In this document: piece after piece, positions 2,902 to 15,330 of the stretch
How positions within the stretch are numbered: position 1 is the first letter of the stretch
How the letters are laid out: each line of letters opens with the position of its first letter
IMG/VR virus record: IMGVR_UViG_3300045988_077050
Span: 1-48,402 of that record
Reading direction: 5' to 3' (one strand)
From: a virus
DNA: 48,402 nucleotides
Made by a program: the position numbers and the translations under genes
Notes under the pieces: model-generated
What the model was told of the DNA's origin: nothing
Seen by the model: the letters and a program-made list of their open reading frames with translations, nothing else
Database searches by the model: none

Positions 2902-3472
2902 GCGTTCTACAAAATTTTATCGCAAGAATGAAGCGGAGGTTATGAAAAGGTTAGGATTTGAGCCAACAAAGAATAGCGGTGCAGGATGGGTAGAAAAGTG
3001 TGATGGACAAAACGAATCTTTTATTTGCGAATTAAAATCAACAGACAAAGAAAGTTACACGTTGAAACAAAAGACACTACAAGAGTTAGAATACCATGCT
3101 TGTGTGGCTCATAAATTGCCCGTATTTGCTTTGCAATTCTTAAACCGTGATGAAATATGGGTTGCAGTCAAAGAGGACGAATTTAAGGAATATATGAAGT
3201 TCAAGAAACAGAAACAAATAGAAATACACTTATCACCATTGTTAGAACAGGAAGAAGAAACAATTGATTCTTTTGTTGACAAAGAAGAAAAAGAAAAGTA
3301 TAATGTATATATGCCTAGTAGAAATGTGGGAAAAACATATCTTGCGAGACATGCTTACATGAAACAAAAAGAGCAAGAAAGGGAACATAGCACAAAAGAG
3401 TTTCGAAAAAGGCAAAAAGAATTAGAAAGGAAAAACAGAGAAAGGAGAAAAAAAGTTGGAAAAGAAGTTTAA
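2894..3472 (+). CDS. PD-(D/E)XK nuclease, Hjc/RecU-like Holliday-junction resolvase candidate
   Basis: E...NSGAG...D...ELK spacing typical of archaeal-Hjc-type resolvases; basic C-terminal tail. Confidence 0.5.
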   Translation: MNKRSTKFYRKNEAEVMKRLGFEPTKNSGAGWVEKCDGQNESFICELKSTDKESYTLKQKTLQELEYHACVAHKLPVFALQFLNRDEIWVAVKEDEFKEYMKFKKQKQIEIHLSPLLEQEEETIDSFVDKEEKEKYNVYMPSRNVGKTYLARHAYMKQKEQEREHSTKEFRKRQKELERKNRERRKKVGKEV

Positions 3473-3839
3473 ACAAAAAGGTATTGCGACCTTTGAAGGA
3501 TTGAGTATTGGAAAGAACAGAACCGTTCAAGTAAAGTTTAAGTTGCGCTATGATGAAATTCTGACCAGTGTAGAATTGTTACAGGGTTTAAATAATGACA
3601 TTACAGTTCATGCAAAGACAGCAATAGGTAATCCAATGAGTTTGGGAATCTTTACAATCGGTGCAGTGAATTTTGACAAAGATGGTAATGCAACTATTCC
3701 ATTCAAGTCTTTAGTTGACAATGTGAATCTGGATAACATTTGTTCCTTGGTGGACGAAGAATATATCCAGTTACGATTCCAAGCTATTATTGAATTACCA
3801 GACAATAGCGAAGGAGGTGACGAAGAATGGGAGGATTAA
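3456..3839 (+). CDS. hypothetical protein with an acidic Trp-containing C-terminal tail (GGDEEWED)
   Basis: TTG start after GGAG; tail resembles the tails of 4255, 7114 and 38930. Confidence 0.5.
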   Translation: MEKKFKQKGIATFEGLSIGKNRTVQVKFKLRYDEILTSVELLQGLNNDITVHAKTAIGNPMSLGIFTIGAVNFDKDGNATIPFKSLVDNVNLDNICSLVDEEYIQLRFQAIIELPDNSEGGDEEWED

Positions 3840-4120
3840 ATTTTAAGGAACTTGCAAAAGAAAGAATCAAGAAAAGAAGAAACATTGTTATTTCCGAAGC
3901 GTTTAACAAGTCTGGCAACTTTGTTGGATATTCGATTGCGGAACAGTTTATTGCAGATGAAGAGGGAAAGAAAATGGGTATTTTCTTAAATGGTGGGTTA
4001 GGTATTTTAGACAAACAAGGATTGGCACACCTAAAATTGGCAGTTGACAAAGCTTGTGAAGAAGCAGGAATCACAGAACAAGATTTATGTGACATTGTAG
4101 TGAATGAAACAAAAGAATAA
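3827..4120 (+). CDS. hypothetical protein
   Basis: ORF overlaps the upstream stop; no motif recognised. Confidence 0.55.
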   Translation: MGGLNFKELAKERIKKRRNIVISEAFNKSGNFVGYSIAEQFIADEEGKKMGIFLNGGLGILDKQGLAHLKLAVDKACEEAGITEQDLCDIVVNETKE

Positions 4121-12248: not shown

Positions 12249-12320
12249 TGCTCTATAGTGTAAAGGTTAGCACACAAGATTTTGATTCTTGTAATATTGG
12301 TTCAATTCCAATTAGGGCAG
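12249..12320 (+). tRNA. tRNA-Gln (anticodon UUG)
   Basis: Hand-folded cloverleaf. Acceptor tgctcta/tagggca (U1-A72), D arm gtgt/gcac with GG in the loop, anticodon stem caaga/tcttg, loop tTTTGat, T arm attgg-ttcaatt-ccaat, discriminator G. No encoded CCA. Confidence 0.9.
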
Positions 12321-13015: not shown

Positions 13016-14295
13016 ATGAATGTAAATGTTGAAGTATCAAACCGTTTTGCTTCGTTTCTTACTGATTGGGATTATGAACAATATTTATTGTTTGGTGGCT
13101 ATGGAAGTGGAAAAAGTTATCATGTAGCATTAAAGATTATATTGAAGCTATTAGAAGAAAAAAGAACAGCGTTAGTTGTTAGACAGGTTAGAGAGACAAT
13201 CAAGGAATCATGTTTTGCGCTATTTAAAGAAATATTAGAAACAATGGATTTGTTATCGGATGAAGTGATTCGATATAATGGAAAGTCAAAGACAGGAAAA
13301 GTTATAGCAATTTCAAGCCCATTAGAAATTAGGTTTCCAAATGGTTCAAGAATCATATTCAGAGGGATGGACAATACGGAAAAAATTAAGTCCATACACG
13401 GAGTTTCTATCGTGTGGATGGAAGAATGTAGCGAGATACGGTATGAAGCGTATACAGAGTTGTTAGGGCGTGTCAGAGAGCCTAAAGTATCTTTACACTT
13501 CTTCCTTACTACGAACCCTGTAGGCAAGGAAAATTGGGTATACAACACATTCTTTGTGAATACGGATGATAAAGGAAAAGAAGAAGTGATACAAGATGAA
13601 GAAGAGGTTTACAGGCGTAGAACATTGGTAAACAAAAAAAATGGTATATATTATCACCACAGTTTACCGGACGATAATCCATTTTTACCAACTTCTTACA
13701 TTAGACGTTTGGACAGCTTAAGACAAACAGACAAAAGATTGTGGATTGTTGCAAGATGGGGAAGATTTGGAGCAAGCGGAACATTGGTATTGCCAAACTT
13801 TGTTGTTGCGAAAAACAGTAAAGAGTTTAAGAATGCAGTGAACAATATTTCTGCACAGTTCCATTTCTTTGGACTTGATTTTGGCTTTGAAGAGAGTTAT
13901 AATGCACTTATTAGTTGTTGTGTGGATGATACAAACAAGATATTATATATCTATGATGAGGTATATATGAACAAAATTACAGACGATAGATTTTGTAAGA
14001 GGGATGATGTGATAGCGGTTGCAGAACGAGCAGAGAGGTGTGACAAACCTATTTGTGCGGATAGCGCAGAGCCAAAAACAATACAGTATTACAGACAGCA
14101 AGGATATCGAATGTATGGAGCAAAAAAGTATATCGGTAGTAGGTTACAGAACACAAAGAAGTTGAAACGTTTTAACAAAATTGTTTGTTCGCCCAAATGT
14201 AAGAACACAATAAGGGAATTAAAAGATTTGACGTATAAAAAGGACTCAAAAGGGAATGCAATTTATGATGAATTTAACATTGACCCTCACACGTT
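13016..14295 (+). CDS. terL: terminase large subunit, exon 1
   Basis: Walker A GGYGSGKS; Terminase_3 / PBSX XtmB-like layout. The conserved C-terminal motif breaks off after ...FNIDPHTF. Confidence 0.8.
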
Positions 14296-15249
14296 TAAAT
14301 ACCACAAGCTAGGCGTGTATAAAAGGATGGAAGAAACTGGGAAAGCTGAAATGCTAATCAGAGCGGAAGTTATTAAGCGTATAGCATAATAACACGCACA
14401 ACGCATAGGGATTGAGGAAACAATAATATCCCCACGAGCCATTGTAATTTAAAATAGGAGGTAGCAAATAATGTATGAAAGAATAAAAGTAAATACATTA
14501 GCGAAAGAATACGAACAGGCATTAGATATCTATGAAGTAGATAAGTATGGAAATGTCTATGGAAATAATGGAATGGAATTAAAACAAAGTTATAATAGGA
14601 GTGGATATAAACAAGTATCTTTAAAGTTAAAAAATAAAAGAAGATGGAAGAAATGTCTTGTACATAGATTGGTCGCACTTGCTTTTGTTTCTGGGAGGAC
14701 AGAACAATATAATGAGGTAGACCATTTAGATACAAACAAAAACAATAACAAGTGGAATAATTTAAGATGGACAGATAGAATAGGAAATATGAACAATGAA
14801 AACACAGTTTTTAAAATGTGGAATCAGAATGGAATTGAATGTTATGTGTATGATTTTAAATTGAATTATATCGGAAAGTTTGGTTCTTTGGATGAAGCAC
14901 AGGAAGCAATCGGTAGAGTAATACATGGAATAAATACAAGAGTAAAAGAATATTATATTTTAGATAGTCCAGATTTAAAGAAAGTGCTAAAAATAAACAA
15001 AAAACAAAAGATACAATCTATTGTTATAACAGATATTGAAACAAATGAAAAATATTATTTCTATTCCAACAGACAGGCAAGAAAGTTTTTTGATGGAAAG
15101 GTAAACATTACGCAAGCCATACAGAAGAATTGGACAGTAAGAGGGAAATATAAGGTTCGTAATTTAAACTATAAAAAATTAATAGGTATGCTAGACTTAT
15201 AGGAATAGTAACTATAAGAGGATAGGATAAAAAGCCTATCGAATTAACG
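14296..15249 (+). mobile_element. putative group I intron carrying an HNH homing endonuclease
   Basis: Exon end acacgtt (14289-95) pairs with intron ggcgtgt (14312-18), with a U.G pair at the splice site. The intron ends in G 15249. Splicing restores ...DPHTF-SALWYALDRY..., the terminase H..DALRYAL-type motif. Confidence 0.6.
14471..15202 (+). CDS. HNH homing endonuclease (NUMOD4 + HNH_3, I-HmuI-like)
   Basis: YEVDKYGNVYG...SGYKQVSL (NUMOD4) and VHRLVALAFV...VDHLDTNKNNNKWNNLRW (HNH); its own GGAGG RBS. Confidence 0.85.
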   Translation: MYERIKVNTLAKEYEQALDIYEVDKYGNVYGNNGMELKQSYNRSGYKQVSLKLKNKRRWKKCLVHRLVALAFVSGRTEQYNEVDHLDTNKNNNKWNNLRWTDRIGNMNNENTVFKMWNQNGIECYVYDFKLNYIGKFGSLDEAQEAIGRVIHGINTRVKEYYILDSPDLKKVLKINKKQKIQSIVITDIETNEKYYFYSNRQARKFFDGKVNITQAIQKNWTVRGKYKVRNLNYKKLIGMLDL

Positions 15250-15328
15250 TAGTGCTTTGTGGTACGCATTAGACCGTTATACGGTTGCAGATGTAAAAGA
15301 AATTAAAACAAACAGTAAGGCAGGTTAG
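15250..15328 (+). CDS. terL: terminase large subunit, exon 2 (26 codons)
   Basis: No start codon or RBS. In frame with exon 1 after removing 14296..15249. Encodes (F)SALWYALDRYTVADVKEIKTNSKAG*. Confidence 0.55.
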
Positions 15329-15330
15329 AT

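What the first reader, a model, noticed from the sequence alone, without database searches (positions are those of the whole stretch)
14289..15330. terL appears split by a group I intron carrying an I-HmuI-like HNH endonuclease
- The terminase ORF diverges from the family's conserved C-terminus right after ...EFNIDPHTF. It then reads 31 unrelated codons to a stop at 14389.
- An HNH/NUMOD4 endonuclease gene follows (14471..15202).
- After that there is a 79-nt frame with no start codon or RBS. It encodes SALWYALDRYTVADVKEIKTNSKAG*.
- Joining 14295 to 15250 restores DPHTF-SALWYAL, which matches the terminase H..DALRYAL-type motif. The joined length is divisible by three (452 aa).
- The exon end acacgtU (14289-95) can pair with the intron sequence ggcgtgt (14312-18), placing the obligatory U.G wobble at the 5' splice site.
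- The proposed intron ends in G (15249), as group I introns do.

An intron in the essential packaging ATPase would make packaging dependent on splicing.
Basis: partly seen in the sequence, partly recalled or inferred. Interest (0 to 1): 0.68.

Follow-up and report, generated by a model that had tools for sequence, protein, structure and literature searches.

The report
Group I intron splitting phage terminase
The phage's DNA-packaging motor gene (terL) is interrupted by a 954-base self-splicing group I intron that carries its own HNH homing-endonuclease gene; the finding is correct, but this is a well-known kind of selfish element in phage terminase genes.

Summary

- **Junction:** Window 14296..15249 (954 nt) is a precise insertion in terL. 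Removing it joins 13016..14295 to 15250..15328 into a 452-aa TerL. About 100 of the 120 best database homologues are uninterrupted and read the same way across the junction (best 98% identical). A 96%-identical intron-less allele puts the DNA breakpoints exactly there.
- **Exon 2 is translated:** 10 synonymous versus 1 non-synonymous codon difference against phage CS266P4. The read-through tail shows 2 versus 3.
- **RNA structure:** The non-coding parts fold into a group I core (P1, P3 to P9, P3/P7 pseudoknot, bulged G-C site in P7, U.G at the 5' splice site, terminal G, P10). In 17 related introns from other genes and sites, 92.7% of cells pair versus 72.7% when shuffled (0 of 500 shuffles reach this), and 38 of 53 pairs change on both sides.
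- **Endonuclease:** The ORF in the P8 loop matches I-HmuI (PDB 1U3E, E=1.4e-9).
- **Rfam:** RF00028 finds nothing, but it also misses the T4-type td intron, so that negative is uninformative.

Group I introns with HNH genes in phage terL are already documented. This is a new member of a known kind. Splicing itself was not tested.

The parts
13016..14295 (+). terL exon 1 (codons 1-426 plus the first two bases of Phe427)
   Evidence: Pfam Terminase_3 (E=1e-57) and Terminase_3C profile positions 1-145 of 155. 96% nt identity to the intron-less allele L019 up to window 14297.
14289..14295 (+). P1, 5' strand (exon ACACGUU); 5' splice site after U14295
   Evidence: Pairs with 14312-14318, including U14295.G14312. 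Intron-bearing alleles W, CS266P4, L020 and L021 all keep CAC ACG TT here, while only 2 of 99 intron-less alleles have this exact sequence.
14296..15249 (+). Group I intron, 954 nt
   Evidence: Precise insertion relative to intron-less alleles L019, Dulem virus 36 and about 100 uninterrupted proteins. Structured core supported by covariation.
14308..14318 (+). Internal guide sequence: GCUA (P10 strand, 14308-11) plus GGCGUGU (P1 strand, 14312-18)
   Evidence: Contiguous pairing with 3' exon UAGU (15250-53) and 5' exon ACACGUU. Its translation LGVYK is the only conserved part of the read-through tails in intron-bearing homologues.
14326..14443 (+). Catalytic core, 5' half. P3 14326-30/14439-43; P4 14337-40/14358-61; P5 14344-46/14353-55; P6 14363-65/14395-97; P6a 14369-75/14387-93; P7 5' strand A14401, bulged C14402, G14403-U14406; P7.x hairpin 14408-12/14428-32.
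   Evidence: The MFE and centroid fold of 14319-14444 alone reproduces P3, P4, P5, P6, P6a and P7.x (z=-2.53).
14445..15181 (+). P8 (UAAUUU 14445-50 / AAAUUA 15176-81), with the endonuclease ORF in its loop
   Evidence: Position matches P8 of the ORF-less relatives. P8 in W itself is a 6-bp A/U helix proposed by hand and is the weakest helix (73.5% of cells paired family-wide on the MAFFT alignment).
14471..15202 (+). HNH homing-endonuclease gene (243 aa), RBS AGGAGG at 14456-61. Its 3' end overlaps P8', J8/7, P7' and the P9 5' strand.
   Evidence: PDB 1U3E I-HmuI, E=1.4e-9 over aa 20-110, with the DH...N..N HNH motif aligned. Pfam HNH_3 and NUMOD1. phrog_959 and phrog_59. 50 synonymous versus 25 non-synonymous codon differences against CS266P4.
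15182..15249 (+). Catalytic core, 3' half. J8/7 AUAGGU 15182-87; P7 3' strand AUGCU 15188-92; P9 15196-202/15212-18; P9.x 15221-26/15235-40 with loop AUAAAAAG; tail GAAUUAACG ending in omega-G15249.
   Evidence: The family consensus AAGAUAUGCU resembles the canonical group I J8/7-P7 'S' element AAGAUAUAGUC. P9 and P9.x fold on their own. P7, P9 and P9.x covary.
15250..15328 (+). terL exon 2 (last base of Phe427, then SALWYALDRYTVADVKEIKTNSKAG and the stop TAG 15326-28)
   Evidence: 10 synonymous versus 1 non-synonymous codon difference against CS266P4, with differences at codon positions 1/2/3 = 1/1/11. Completes Terminase_3C to profile position 154 of 155. Identical to the C-terminus of uninterrupted P0001.

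Best explanation
Window 14296..15249 is a mobile group I intron of subgroup-IA-like architecture, with an extra hairpin between P7 and P3'. It sits in the large terminase gene of a Clostridium-type gut siphophage.

Proposed mechanism:
- terL is transcribed as one pre-mRNA.
- The intron's guide sequence (14308-18) pairs with the end of exon 1 (P1, U14295.G14312) and the start of exon 2 (P10).
- The folded core (P3-P9, with a G-binding G14403-C15191 pair next to bulged C14402 in P7) catalyses the two guanosine-dependent transesterifications.
- This releases the intron, which ends in G15249, and ligates the exons into an mRNA for a 452-aa TerL with an intact RNase-H-like nuclease domain.
- The P8 loop carries an I-HmuI-like HNH endonuclease gene with its own RBS. 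This enzyme presumably nicks or cuts intron-less terL alleles during co-infection and drives homing of the intron, with co-conversion of flanking exon sequence.

Shown here: the exact insertion boundaries, the identity of the joined protein, coding selection on exon 2, the RNA secondary structure and its pseudoknot topology, and the endonuclease homology.

Inferred only: that splicing actually happens and is self-catalysed, and that the endonuclease is active and targets this site.
For: **1. Junction**
- Dulem virus 36 TerL reads ...NIDAHTFDSIAYALDTYTVAD... straight across the site, with the same length.
- About 100 of the 120 best homologues are uninterrupted and read ...DPHTFSALWYALD.YTVAD..K.NSKAG. 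P0001 is 98% identical overall and identical at the junction.
- The intron-less allele L019 (96% nt identity) gives BLAST breakpoints at 14297/15250 with a 2-nt TA overlap.
- Terminase_3C rises from 107.9 bits (profile 1-145) to 124.4 bits (profile 1-154 of 155) on joining.

**2. Exon 2 is coding, the read-through tail is not**
- 10 synonymous to 1 non-synonymous versus 2 to 3.

**3. RNA structure**
- Seventeen distinct family members were aligned (alignment A1). They come from other genes and sites, and include ORF-less copies of about 250 nt and copies with the ORF in P8 or in P7.x.
- They form 92.7% standard pairs versus 72.7% in shuffles (0 of 500 reach this).
- 38 of 53 pairs change on both sides. 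The covariation score is 0.558, versus 0.189 shuffled and 0.08-0.12 with slid partners.
- The order P3-P4-P5-P6-P7-[P7.x]-P3'-P8-P7'-P9 is the group I pseudoknot topology.
- The first P7 pair covaries A-U to G-C beside a bulged base and an invariant G-C pair.
- The window's own sequence folds into the same helices.

**4. Splice-site rules**
- U.G at the 5' splice site, G at the intron 3' end, and P1 contiguous with P10 on one guide sequence, in W and in relatives with unrelated exons: L003A, L003B, L006, L013, L021.
- In each of these the reading frame and conserved protein motifs are restored (for example SESARG|NRANYIIIEE, DTQG|VGISIFD).

**5. Endonuclease**
- I-HmuI homologue, phrog_59.

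**6. Precedent**
- Group I introns with HNH genes in phage terL are documented (PMC11878797, PMC4299906).
Against: - Rfam RF00028 gives no match at E<=10 to the window, to CS266P4, Dulem virus 36 or MT835481, or to the isolated ORF-less relative. This is weakened by the same scan missing the T4-type td intron, and by the published remark that the Rfam and GISSD models can miss phage variants (PMC11878797).
- There is no transcript or biochemical evidence of splicing.
- P8 in the window is a short A/U helix.
- P4 is nearly invariant in the family, so it is not tested by covariation.
- The structure was drawn by hand from three of the sequences later counted, which favours it somewhat in the slide control.
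- The exon-1 reading frame runs 30 codons into the core (through P3-P6a), so ribosomes on unspliced RNA would compete with folding.
Confidence: 0.93

Rival explanations
1. A free-standing HNH homing endonuclease gene inserted into terL without any intron ('intron-less homing'). It leaves a truncated but functional 457-aa TerL (13016..14389), plus either a dead C-terminal remnant or a separately made 23-26-aa peptide.
For: - The unspliced ORF is what gene callers and GenBank annotate: P0005, and 'terminase large subunit' plus 'hypothetical protein' in CS266P4.
- A TTG at 15257 could in principle start a 23-aa ORF.
- Rfam finds no intron.
Against: - Exon 2 is under strong purifying selection in the TerL frame (10 synonymous to 1 non-synonymous), and it has no Shine-Dalgarno sequence.
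- The 30-aa read-through tail is not conserved as protein. Its tails vary among alleles and share only the LGVYK guide sequence.
- The non-coding flanks of the ORF form a conserved, covarying RNA.
- ORF-less relatives of about 250 nt interrupt genes at in-frame positions, which a free-standing endonuclease gene cannot explain.
Confidence: 0.03
2. A structured insertion that is removed or bypassed by some mechanism other than group I self-splicing. Candidates are a group II intron, an intein, long-range ribosomal bypassing, or a new ribozyme class that only resembles group I.
For: RF00028 does not match, even on the ORF-less relative. No biochemical data exist.
Against: - Group II: no reverse transcriptase, no domain V, and no Rfam group II hit.
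- Intein: in-frame stop codons at 14387-89 and beyond exclude it.
- Ribosomal bypass: 954 nt is far beyond known bypassing (50 nt in T4 gene 60, established knowledge).
- New ribozyme class: every group I hallmark that sequence can show is present. These are the U.G 5' splice site, the terminal G, a contiguous P1/P10 guide, the P3/P7 pseudoknot order, the bulge plus G-C pair in P7, the A-rich J4/5, and an AAGAUAU J8/7 motif.
Confidence: 0.03
3. Assembly artefact or chimera that places an HNH gene inside terL.
For: The window is a single assembled contig of unknown origin.
Against: - The same insertion at the same site is present in four independently isolated and sequenced phages, CS266P1 to CS266P4.
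- It is also present in divergent metagenomic alleles L020, L021 and L022.
- The 457-aa read-through protein cluster has 31 member sequences from NCBI, JGI, ENA and Logan.
Confidence: 0.01

Closest known systems
Group I introns in terminase large-subunit genes of Bastillevirinae Bacillus phages (PMC11878797), Bacillus phage Moonbeam (PMC4299906) and Lactobacillus phage LL-H (Mikkonen & Alatossava 1995, cited in PMC4299906)
   Same: Same host gene (terL) and same element type: a group I intron, mostly IA-like, with the ribozyme interrupted by a loop encoding an HNH homing endonuclease. Some of those endonucleases belong to phrog_59, which the window's ORF also matches. terL genes with two or three introns occur there, as in CS266P4 here.
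   Different: Different terminase family and phage lineage: Terminase_3 of Clostridium-type gut siphophages of about 44-54 kb. The insertion site is also different, in the last conserved nuclease-domain motif H-T-F|S-A-L-W-Y-A-L-D. The core sequence is not picked up by RF00028 here. Splicing of those Bacillus introns was verified by cDNA, while this one is untested.
Bacillus phage SPO1/SP82 DNA-polymerase intron encoding I-HmuI / I-HmuII
   Same: An HNH (His-Me finger) nicking endonuclease with NUMOD-type DNA-binding modules, encoded inside a phage group I intron. The window's ORF aligns to I-HmuI (1U3E) over residues 20-110 at E=1.4e-9, with the DH...N...N motif conserved.
   Different: Host gene is the DNA polymerase rather than terL. 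The proteins share only the N-terminal and catalytic half at detectable identity. The C-terminal 130 aa here matches NUMOD1 only.
T4 td, nrdB and nrdD (sunY) introns, subgroup IA2
   Same: Phage group I introns with extra pairing between P7 and P3' (P7.1/P7.2 in IA, established knowledge: Michel & Westhof 1990), an endonuclease ORF looped out of a peripheral helix, and an exon reading frame that runs into the intron.
   Different: The T4 endonucleases are GIY-YIG (I-TevI, I-TevII) rather than HNH. In T4 td the ORF sits in P6 rather than P8. The family here has a single, sometimes bipartite, hairpin between P7 and P3' rather than two. There is no detectable primary-sequence similarity.

Membership tests
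Group I self-splicing intron | P1 helix between the 5' exon end and an internal guide sequence, with a U.G wobble at the 5' splice site | tested here: met
   ACACGUU (14289-95) pairs with GGCGUGU (14312-18), with U14295.G14312. Relatives in unrelated exons keep a U.G-terminated P1 with different sequences: GGGGU/GCCCC, AGAGGU/GCCUCU, UGGU/GCCG. Exon codons are fixed to the pairing version in intron-bearing alleles.
Group I self-splicing intron | Intron ends in G (omega-G), and P10 forms between the 3' exon and the guide sequence next to P1 | tested here: met
   G15249 immediately precedes the homologue-defined junction. 3' exon UAGU (15250-53) pairs with GCUA (14308-11), which is contiguous with the P1 strand. 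Relatives show P10 of 4-8 bp.
Group I self-splicing intron | Conserved core helices in the order P3-P4-P5-P6-P7-P3'-P8-P7'-P9, forming the P3/P7 pseudoknot | tested here: met
   Structure counted on alignment A1: 92.7% of cells paired, 38 of 53 pairs with changes on both sides, 0 of 500 shuffles reach the observed values, slide controls 33-43% paired. P3, P6, P6a, P7.x, P9 and P9.x each show multiple compensatory pairs. P4 and most of P7 are invariant and so uninformative. The MFE fold of the window sequence agrees.
Group I self-splicing intron | Guanosine-binding site: a G-C pair in P7 next to a bulged nucleotide; conserved J8/7, J4/5 and J3/4 junctions | tested here: met
   P7 = A14401-U15192, bulged C14402, G14403-C15191 (invariant in 17 of 17), C-G, A-U, U-A. 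The first pair covaries A-U (14 sequences) to G-C (3 sequences). J8/7-P7' is AAGAUAUGC in the family, versus the canonical AAGAUAUAGUC seen in the neighbouring CS266P4 intron. J3/4 and J4/5 are A-rich. The pattern is consistent; function was not tested.
Group I self-splicing intron | Match to the curated covariance model Rfam RF00028 (Intron_gpI) | tested here: inconclusive
   No hit at E<=10 on the window, CS266P4, Dulem virus 36 or MT835481, including an isolated ORF-less copy. The positive control, the T4-type td intron in phage LZ2, is also missed. The test therefore lacks sensitivity for phage IA-type introns, and PMC11878797 states the same limitation.
Group I self-splicing intron | Guanosine-dependent self-splicing in vitro, or ligated exons in vivo | not testable with these tools
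   No transcript data are available. Needs RT-PCR or RNA-seq and a GTP-dependent in-vitro splicing assay.
HNH (His-Me finger) intron-encoded homing endonuclease, I-HmuI type | HNH catalytic motif with N-terminal and NUMOD DNA-binding modules, encoded within an intron loop | tested here: met
   Pfam HNH_3 (29.6 bits, cut-off 24.8) and NUMOD1 (28.3 bits, cut-off 22.8). NUMOD4 is sub-threshold. 1U3E at E=1.4e-9, with the VDH...NNL motif aligned. phrog_959 and phrog_59 'HNH endonuclease'. The ORF sits in the P8 loop. Cleavage activity and target were not tested.
Large terminase, Terminase_3 / Terminase_3C (PBSX-type) | N-terminal ATPase plus a complete C-terminal RNase-H-like nuclease domain | tested here: met
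   The joined 452-aa protein scores Terminase_3 at E=1.1e-57 and Terminase_3C at E=6.8e-36, covering profile positions 1-154 of 155. The unspliced ORF reaches only position 145.

The most novel reading that the evidence does not exclude
The intron belongs to a coherent, previously uncatalogued lineage of phage group I introns. The lineage has a conserved core (CUGGAAAGCUGAAAUGCUAAUCAGAG ... CAACGCAUAG ... CCA(A/C)GAG ... AAGAUAUGCUGA ... GAUAAAAAGC), and the current Rfam model does not recognise it. It has spread across very different phages: gut Clostridium-type siphophages, other terminase families in human-gut phages, Yersinia jumbo phage phiR1-37 gyrase A, C. difficile jumbo phages, Staphylococcus phages and a crAss-like phage. 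It can carry its endonuclease in either of two loops (P8 or the P7.x hairpin). If so, many 'truncated' or 'split' phage genes in public records are unrecognised intron hosts.
Probability: 0.4. Interest if true: 0.45.

Novelty: new member of a known kind. Interest (0 to 1): 0.3.

Why it matters
**Annotation.** Gene callers and GenBank records give this terL as a 457-aa protein with a spurious 30-aa tail, and they miss the last 25 residues of the nuclease domain. This applies to the window's own cluster P0005 and to CS266P1-4. Dulem virus 36 shows the same problem at a different intron. The correct product is 452 aa.

**Biology.** An essential late gene depends on RNA self-splicing, and a selfish HNH element targets one of the most conserved motifs of the packaging nuclease. 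This is expected behaviour for homing introns.

**Methods.** RF00028 missed this intron, its ORF-less relatives and the T4-type td control. The covarying alignment built here could seed a better model for phage introns in gut viromes.

Tried and rejected
- **Rfam cmscan with permissive thresholds** on the window region, on three relatives and on an isolated 301-nt ORF-less copy gave no Intron_gpI or group II hit. I did not count this as evidence against group I, because the td positive control also failed.
- **First anchor regex** for parsing intron modules was wrong and found nothing. It was replaced by fuzzy anchors.
- **Unconstrained automatic P1/P10/ORF-continuity search** was swamped by chance A/U helices, and it dropped W because exon 2 ends within the test window. 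The constrained version recovers the homologue-supported junctions for L003A, L003B, L006, L013 and L021. It still picks spurious sites in several AT-rich copies (L004, L005, L007, L008, L009, L012, L015, L016). For W and CS266P4 it ties with an out-of-frame alternative, so P1/P10 evidence is quoted only where protein continuity fixes the junction.
- **Literature search for the CS266P phages** found nothing.
- **Further copies of the core in the window:** none. There is one exact hit only, and the 3'-motif hits are at chance level.
- **Considered and rejected:** intein (in-frame stops), group II intron (no RT or domain V), ribosomal bypass (954 nt), assembly artefact (seen in independent isolates).
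- **Not attempted:** building a covariance model of the family, and scanning metagenome or genome collections for the spliced junction. DNA alleles with an identical empty site exist (2 of 99), so a hit there could not prove splicing.
Full report
**1. What is in the sequence**

The region reads as the first-stage reader described.
- The terL ORF starts at 13016. It carries Pfam Terminase_3 and Terminase_3C.
- It leaves the family consensus after ...EFNIDPHTF and runs 30 more codons to a TAA stop at 14387-89.
- A 243-aa ORF (14471..15202) follows. It has an AGGAGG ribosome-binding site at 14456-61 and hits HNH_3 and NUMOD1. NUMOD4 is only sub-threshold.
- A 79-nt frame (15250..15328) without a Shine-Dalgarno sequence encodes (F)SALWYALDRYTVADVKEIKTNSKAG*.
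- Joining 14295 to 15250 gives 1359 nt, which is 452 aa plus the stop.
- The finding's end coordinate (15330) is 2 nt beyond the stop codon.

**2. The insertion is real and precise**

Relatives in the phage collection:
- Clostridium phages CS266P1-4 are about 83% identical. They have the same insertion with a homologous 243-aa endonuclease, plus a second insertion upstream.
- Dulem virus 36 has only the upstream insertion. Its second terminase CDS reads ...DEFNIDAHTFDSIAYALDTYTVADLKYKGTNTKAG* without interruption across our site, with the same spacing as the joined window product.

Protein search with the joined 452-aa product:
- About 100 of the 120 best hits are uninterrupted proteins of 447-456 aa. 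They cover 100% of the query and end ...DPHTFSALWYALD.YTVAD..K.NSKAG.
- The best hit, P0001, is 98% identical and identical at the junction.
- About 20 hits, including the window's own 457-aa read-through ORF (P0005), diverge right after HTF. Their tails differ from one another and share only LGVYK.
- LGVYK is the translation of CUA GGC GUG UAU AAA, the proposed internal guide sequence. These hits are therefore intron-bearing alleles.

DNA breakpoints and domain completeness:
- The DNA of P0001 (locus L019) is 96% identical to the window up to 14297 and resumes at 15250, with a 2-nt TA overlap. The insertion is thus exactly 954 nt.
- Among the three equivalent registers, only 14296..15249 gives an exon ending in U and an intron ending in G.
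- Joining lifts Terminase_3C from 107.9 bits (profile 1-145 of 155) to 124.4 bits (profile 1-154 of 155).

**3. Exon 2 is translated, the read-through tail is not**

Comparison with CS266P4:

| Region | Synonymous codon differences | Non-synonymous | Differences at codon positions 1/2/3 |
|---|---|---|---|
| Exon 2 | 10 | 1 | 1/1/11 |
| Read-through tail | 2 | 3 | 2/2/2 |
| HNH ORF | 50 | 25 | 19/11/55 |

Exon 2 is under purifying selection in the TerL frame even though it has no start signal of its own. The tail behaves as expected for RNA-level constraint rather than protein-level constraint.

**4. The non-coding parts are a group I ribozyme**

Finding relatives:
- BLAST of the region found an ~85-nt match to the intron's 5' part, twice, in an unannotated human-gut phage (MT835481, L003).
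- There an unrelated terminase is interrupted once by an ORF-less ~260-nt element and once by an HNH-containing one.
- A 23-nt core motif retrieved 15 more loci from IMG/VR.
- Divergent alleles at our own site were fetched through their read-through proteins (L020-L022).
- After the ORF-bearing loops were trimmed, 17 distinct P3-to-omega-G sequences were aligned (alignment A1).

Helix model (window coordinates and by hand):

| Element | Window coordinates |
|---|---|
| P1 | 14289-95 / 14312-18 |
| P10 | 14308-11 / 15250-53 |
| P3 | 14326-30 / 14439-43 |
| P4 | 14337-40 / 14358-61 |
| P5 | 14344-46 / 14353-55 |
| P6 | 14363-65 / 14395-97 |
| P6a | 14369-75 / 14387-93 |
| P7 | A14401, bulged C14402, 14403-06 / 15188-92 |
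| P7.x (hairpin between P7 and P3') | 14408-12 / 14428-32 |
| P8 (ORF in its loop) | 14445-50 / 15176-81 |
| P9 | 15196-202 / 15212-18 |
| P9.x | 15221-26 / 15235-40 |
| omega-G | 15249 |

Covariation test on A1:
- 92.7% of cells form standard pairs, versus 72.7% in shuffles (0 of 500 shuffles reach the observed value).
- 38 of 53 pairs change on both sides.
- The covariation score is 0.558, versus 0.189 shuffled and 0.08-0.12 when partners are slid by 1-3 columns (33-43% paired).
- P3, P6, P6a, P7.x, P9 and P9.x each have several compensatory pairs.
- P7 has an invariant G-C pair next to a bulged base, and its first pair covaries A-U to G-C.
- P4 and the rest of P7 are invariant and so uninformative.

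Further support:
- The strand order (P3 5' ... P7 5', hairpin, P3 3', P8, P7 3') is the pseudoknot that defines group I introns. An extra hairpin between P7 and P3' is typical of subgroup IA (established knowledge, Michel & Westhof 1990).
- The window's own 14319-14444 folds into P3, P4, P5, P6, P6a and P7.x as both MFE and centroid structure (z=-2.53).
- The window's own 15182-15253 folds into P9 and P9.x (z=-1.94).
- The family's J8/7-P7' motif AAGAUAUGCU resembles the canonical AAGAUAUAGUC. That canonical motif is present verbatim in the other, upstream intron of CS266P4 and Dulem virus 36.

**5. Splice-site rules**

In the window, U14295 pairs with G14312. The P1 and P10 strands lie side by side on one guide sequence, and the intron ends in G. 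Relatives sit in unrelated exons, and wherever protein continuity fixes the junction the same rules hold with different sequences:

| Copy | P1 (bp) | P10 (bp) |
|---|---|---|
| L021 | 7 | 4 |
| L003B | 5 | 8 |
| L006 | 4 | 8 |
| L013 | 6 | 5 |
| L003A | 3 | 7 |

- Conserved protein motifs are restored, for example SESARG|NRANYIIIEE, SENALG|IRTNILIVDE and DTQG|VGISIFD.
- Among 99 intron-less alleles of our terL family in IMG/VR, only 2 carry the exact ACACGTT|TAGT sequence. Most use CAT-ACA or CAT-ACT instead.
- All complete intron-bearing alleles at this site keep CAC-ACG-TT. This fits a P1 pairing constraint and/or co-conversion during homing.

**6. The endonuclease**

- The ORF aligns to I-HmuI (PDB 1U3E) over residues 20-110 at E=1.4e-9, with the catalytic DH...N...N motif conserved.
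- It falls in phrog_959 and phrog_59. phrog_59 is the main cluster of intron-encoded HNH proteins reported in Bastillevirinae (PMC11878797).
- Its last ~27 nt overlap P8', J8/7, P7' and the 5' strand of P9, so translating the endonuclease and folding the ribozyme are mutually exclusive on a single RNA. This is an inference, and a familiar feature of phage introns.

**7. The Rfam negative**

- RF00028 gave nothing at E<=10 on the window, on three relatives or on an isolated ORF-less copy.
- As a control I fetched a T4-type td gene with its I-TevI-bearing intron (phage LZ2). The same scan missed that too.
- The negative therefore says little. PMC11878797 states that the Rfam and GISSD models are incomplete and may fail on phage introns.

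**8. Rivals**

- **Free-standing endonuclease insertion with a truncated TerL:** contradicted by selection on exon 2, by the covarying RNA and by the ORF-less relatives.
- **Intein, group II intron, ribosomal bypass:** excluded by in-frame stops, the lack of RT or domain V, and the 954-nt distance.
- **Assembly artefact:** excluded because the insertion recurs in four isolated phages and in several metagenomic alleles.

**9. Novelty and verdict**

Group I introns carrying HNH genes in phage terL are established: LL-H and Moonbeam (PMC4299906), and 5 of 52 Bastillevirinae with cDNA-verified splicing (PMC11878797). This is a new member of a known kind.

Modest extras:
- The public annotations of this terL are wrong.
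- The intron belongs to a widespread, apparently uncatalogued lineage. Relatives are also seen in Yersinia phage phiR1-37 between two gyrase-A fragments, in C. difficile jumbo phages, in Staphylococcus phages and in a crAss-like phage.
- Current models miss this lineage.

Splicing itself remains to be shown experimentally.

Noticed in passing
window about 14066-14074 (..GAT AGC GCA | GAG CCA AAA.. = ..ADSA|EPK..); L001 2560-3430; L002 1111-1881: CS266P1-4 and Dulem virus 36 carry a second, different intron in terL at ...ICADSA|EPKTIQ..., with a 196-197-aa I-HmuI-like HNH ORF. The window is intron-less at that site. The 3' part of that intron contains AAGATATAGTC, the canonical group I J8/7-P7 element. 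It is annotated only as split 'terminase' / 'hypothetical protein' CDSs.
   Followed up: partly
L003 (MT835481) about 1935-2195 and about 2956-4085; L009; L011; L018: An unrelated terminase in human-gut phages is interrupted twice by relatives of this intron. One copy lies at the ATPase motif ...SENALG|IRTNILIVDE (ORF-less, about 260 nt). The other lies at the nuclease motif ...DTQG|VGISIFD (with a 289-aa HNH ORF in L003, ORF-less in L009). The record has no annotation.
   Followed up: partly
L004, L012, L016, L017 (IMG/VR contigs): In some family members the endonuclease ORF sits in the hairpin between P7 and P3' instead of in P8. The same ribozyme lineage has therefore been colonised, or rearranged, at two different loops. 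Hosts include a P-loop protein (junction ...IYGAP|KVGKTT...). L016 carries two introns about 1.2 kb apart.
   Followed up: partly
L023 = Yersinia phage phiR1-37 (AJ972879) 244658-244826, between g328 and g329: A 75%-identical relative of the intron core lies in the unannotated gap between two CDSs of a jumbo Yersinia phage. The downstream CDS is annotated DNA-gyrase A subunit, which suggests an unrecognised intron splitting that gene. Similar partial matches occur in C. difficile jumbo phages (phiCD211, phiCDIF1296T), Staphylococcus phages and crAss-like phage cr128_1.
   Followed up: no
L022 (Logan SRR29472729 contig) about 1330-1400: One allele at the same terL site appears to have its 5' splice site 2 nt upstream (..CACACU|AAACAUGG..). 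Its guide sequence is changed to GGUGUG, which pairs with CACACU. This could be intron sliding or an independent insertion. The contig ends before the 3' splice site, so it could not be confirmed.
   Followed up: no
window 12249-12320 (+): tRNA-Gln (anticodon UUG) about 700 nt upstream of terL. This is the only Rfam gathering-level hit in the whole window.
   Followed up: no
L123 (phage LZ2 td gene, AY262149): The Rfam 15 RF00028 scan as run here does not report the classic T4-type td group I intron, even at E<=10. Negative RF00028 results on phage sequences should not be read as absence of a group I intron.
   Followed up: yes
L001 5349-5424 (CS266P4, downstream of terL): Sub-threshold Rfam match to RT-17 RNA (32.8 bits against a gathering score of 40.4, E=0.0056) in an intergenic stretch of CS266P4. 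The equivalent window region was not checked.
   Followed up: no
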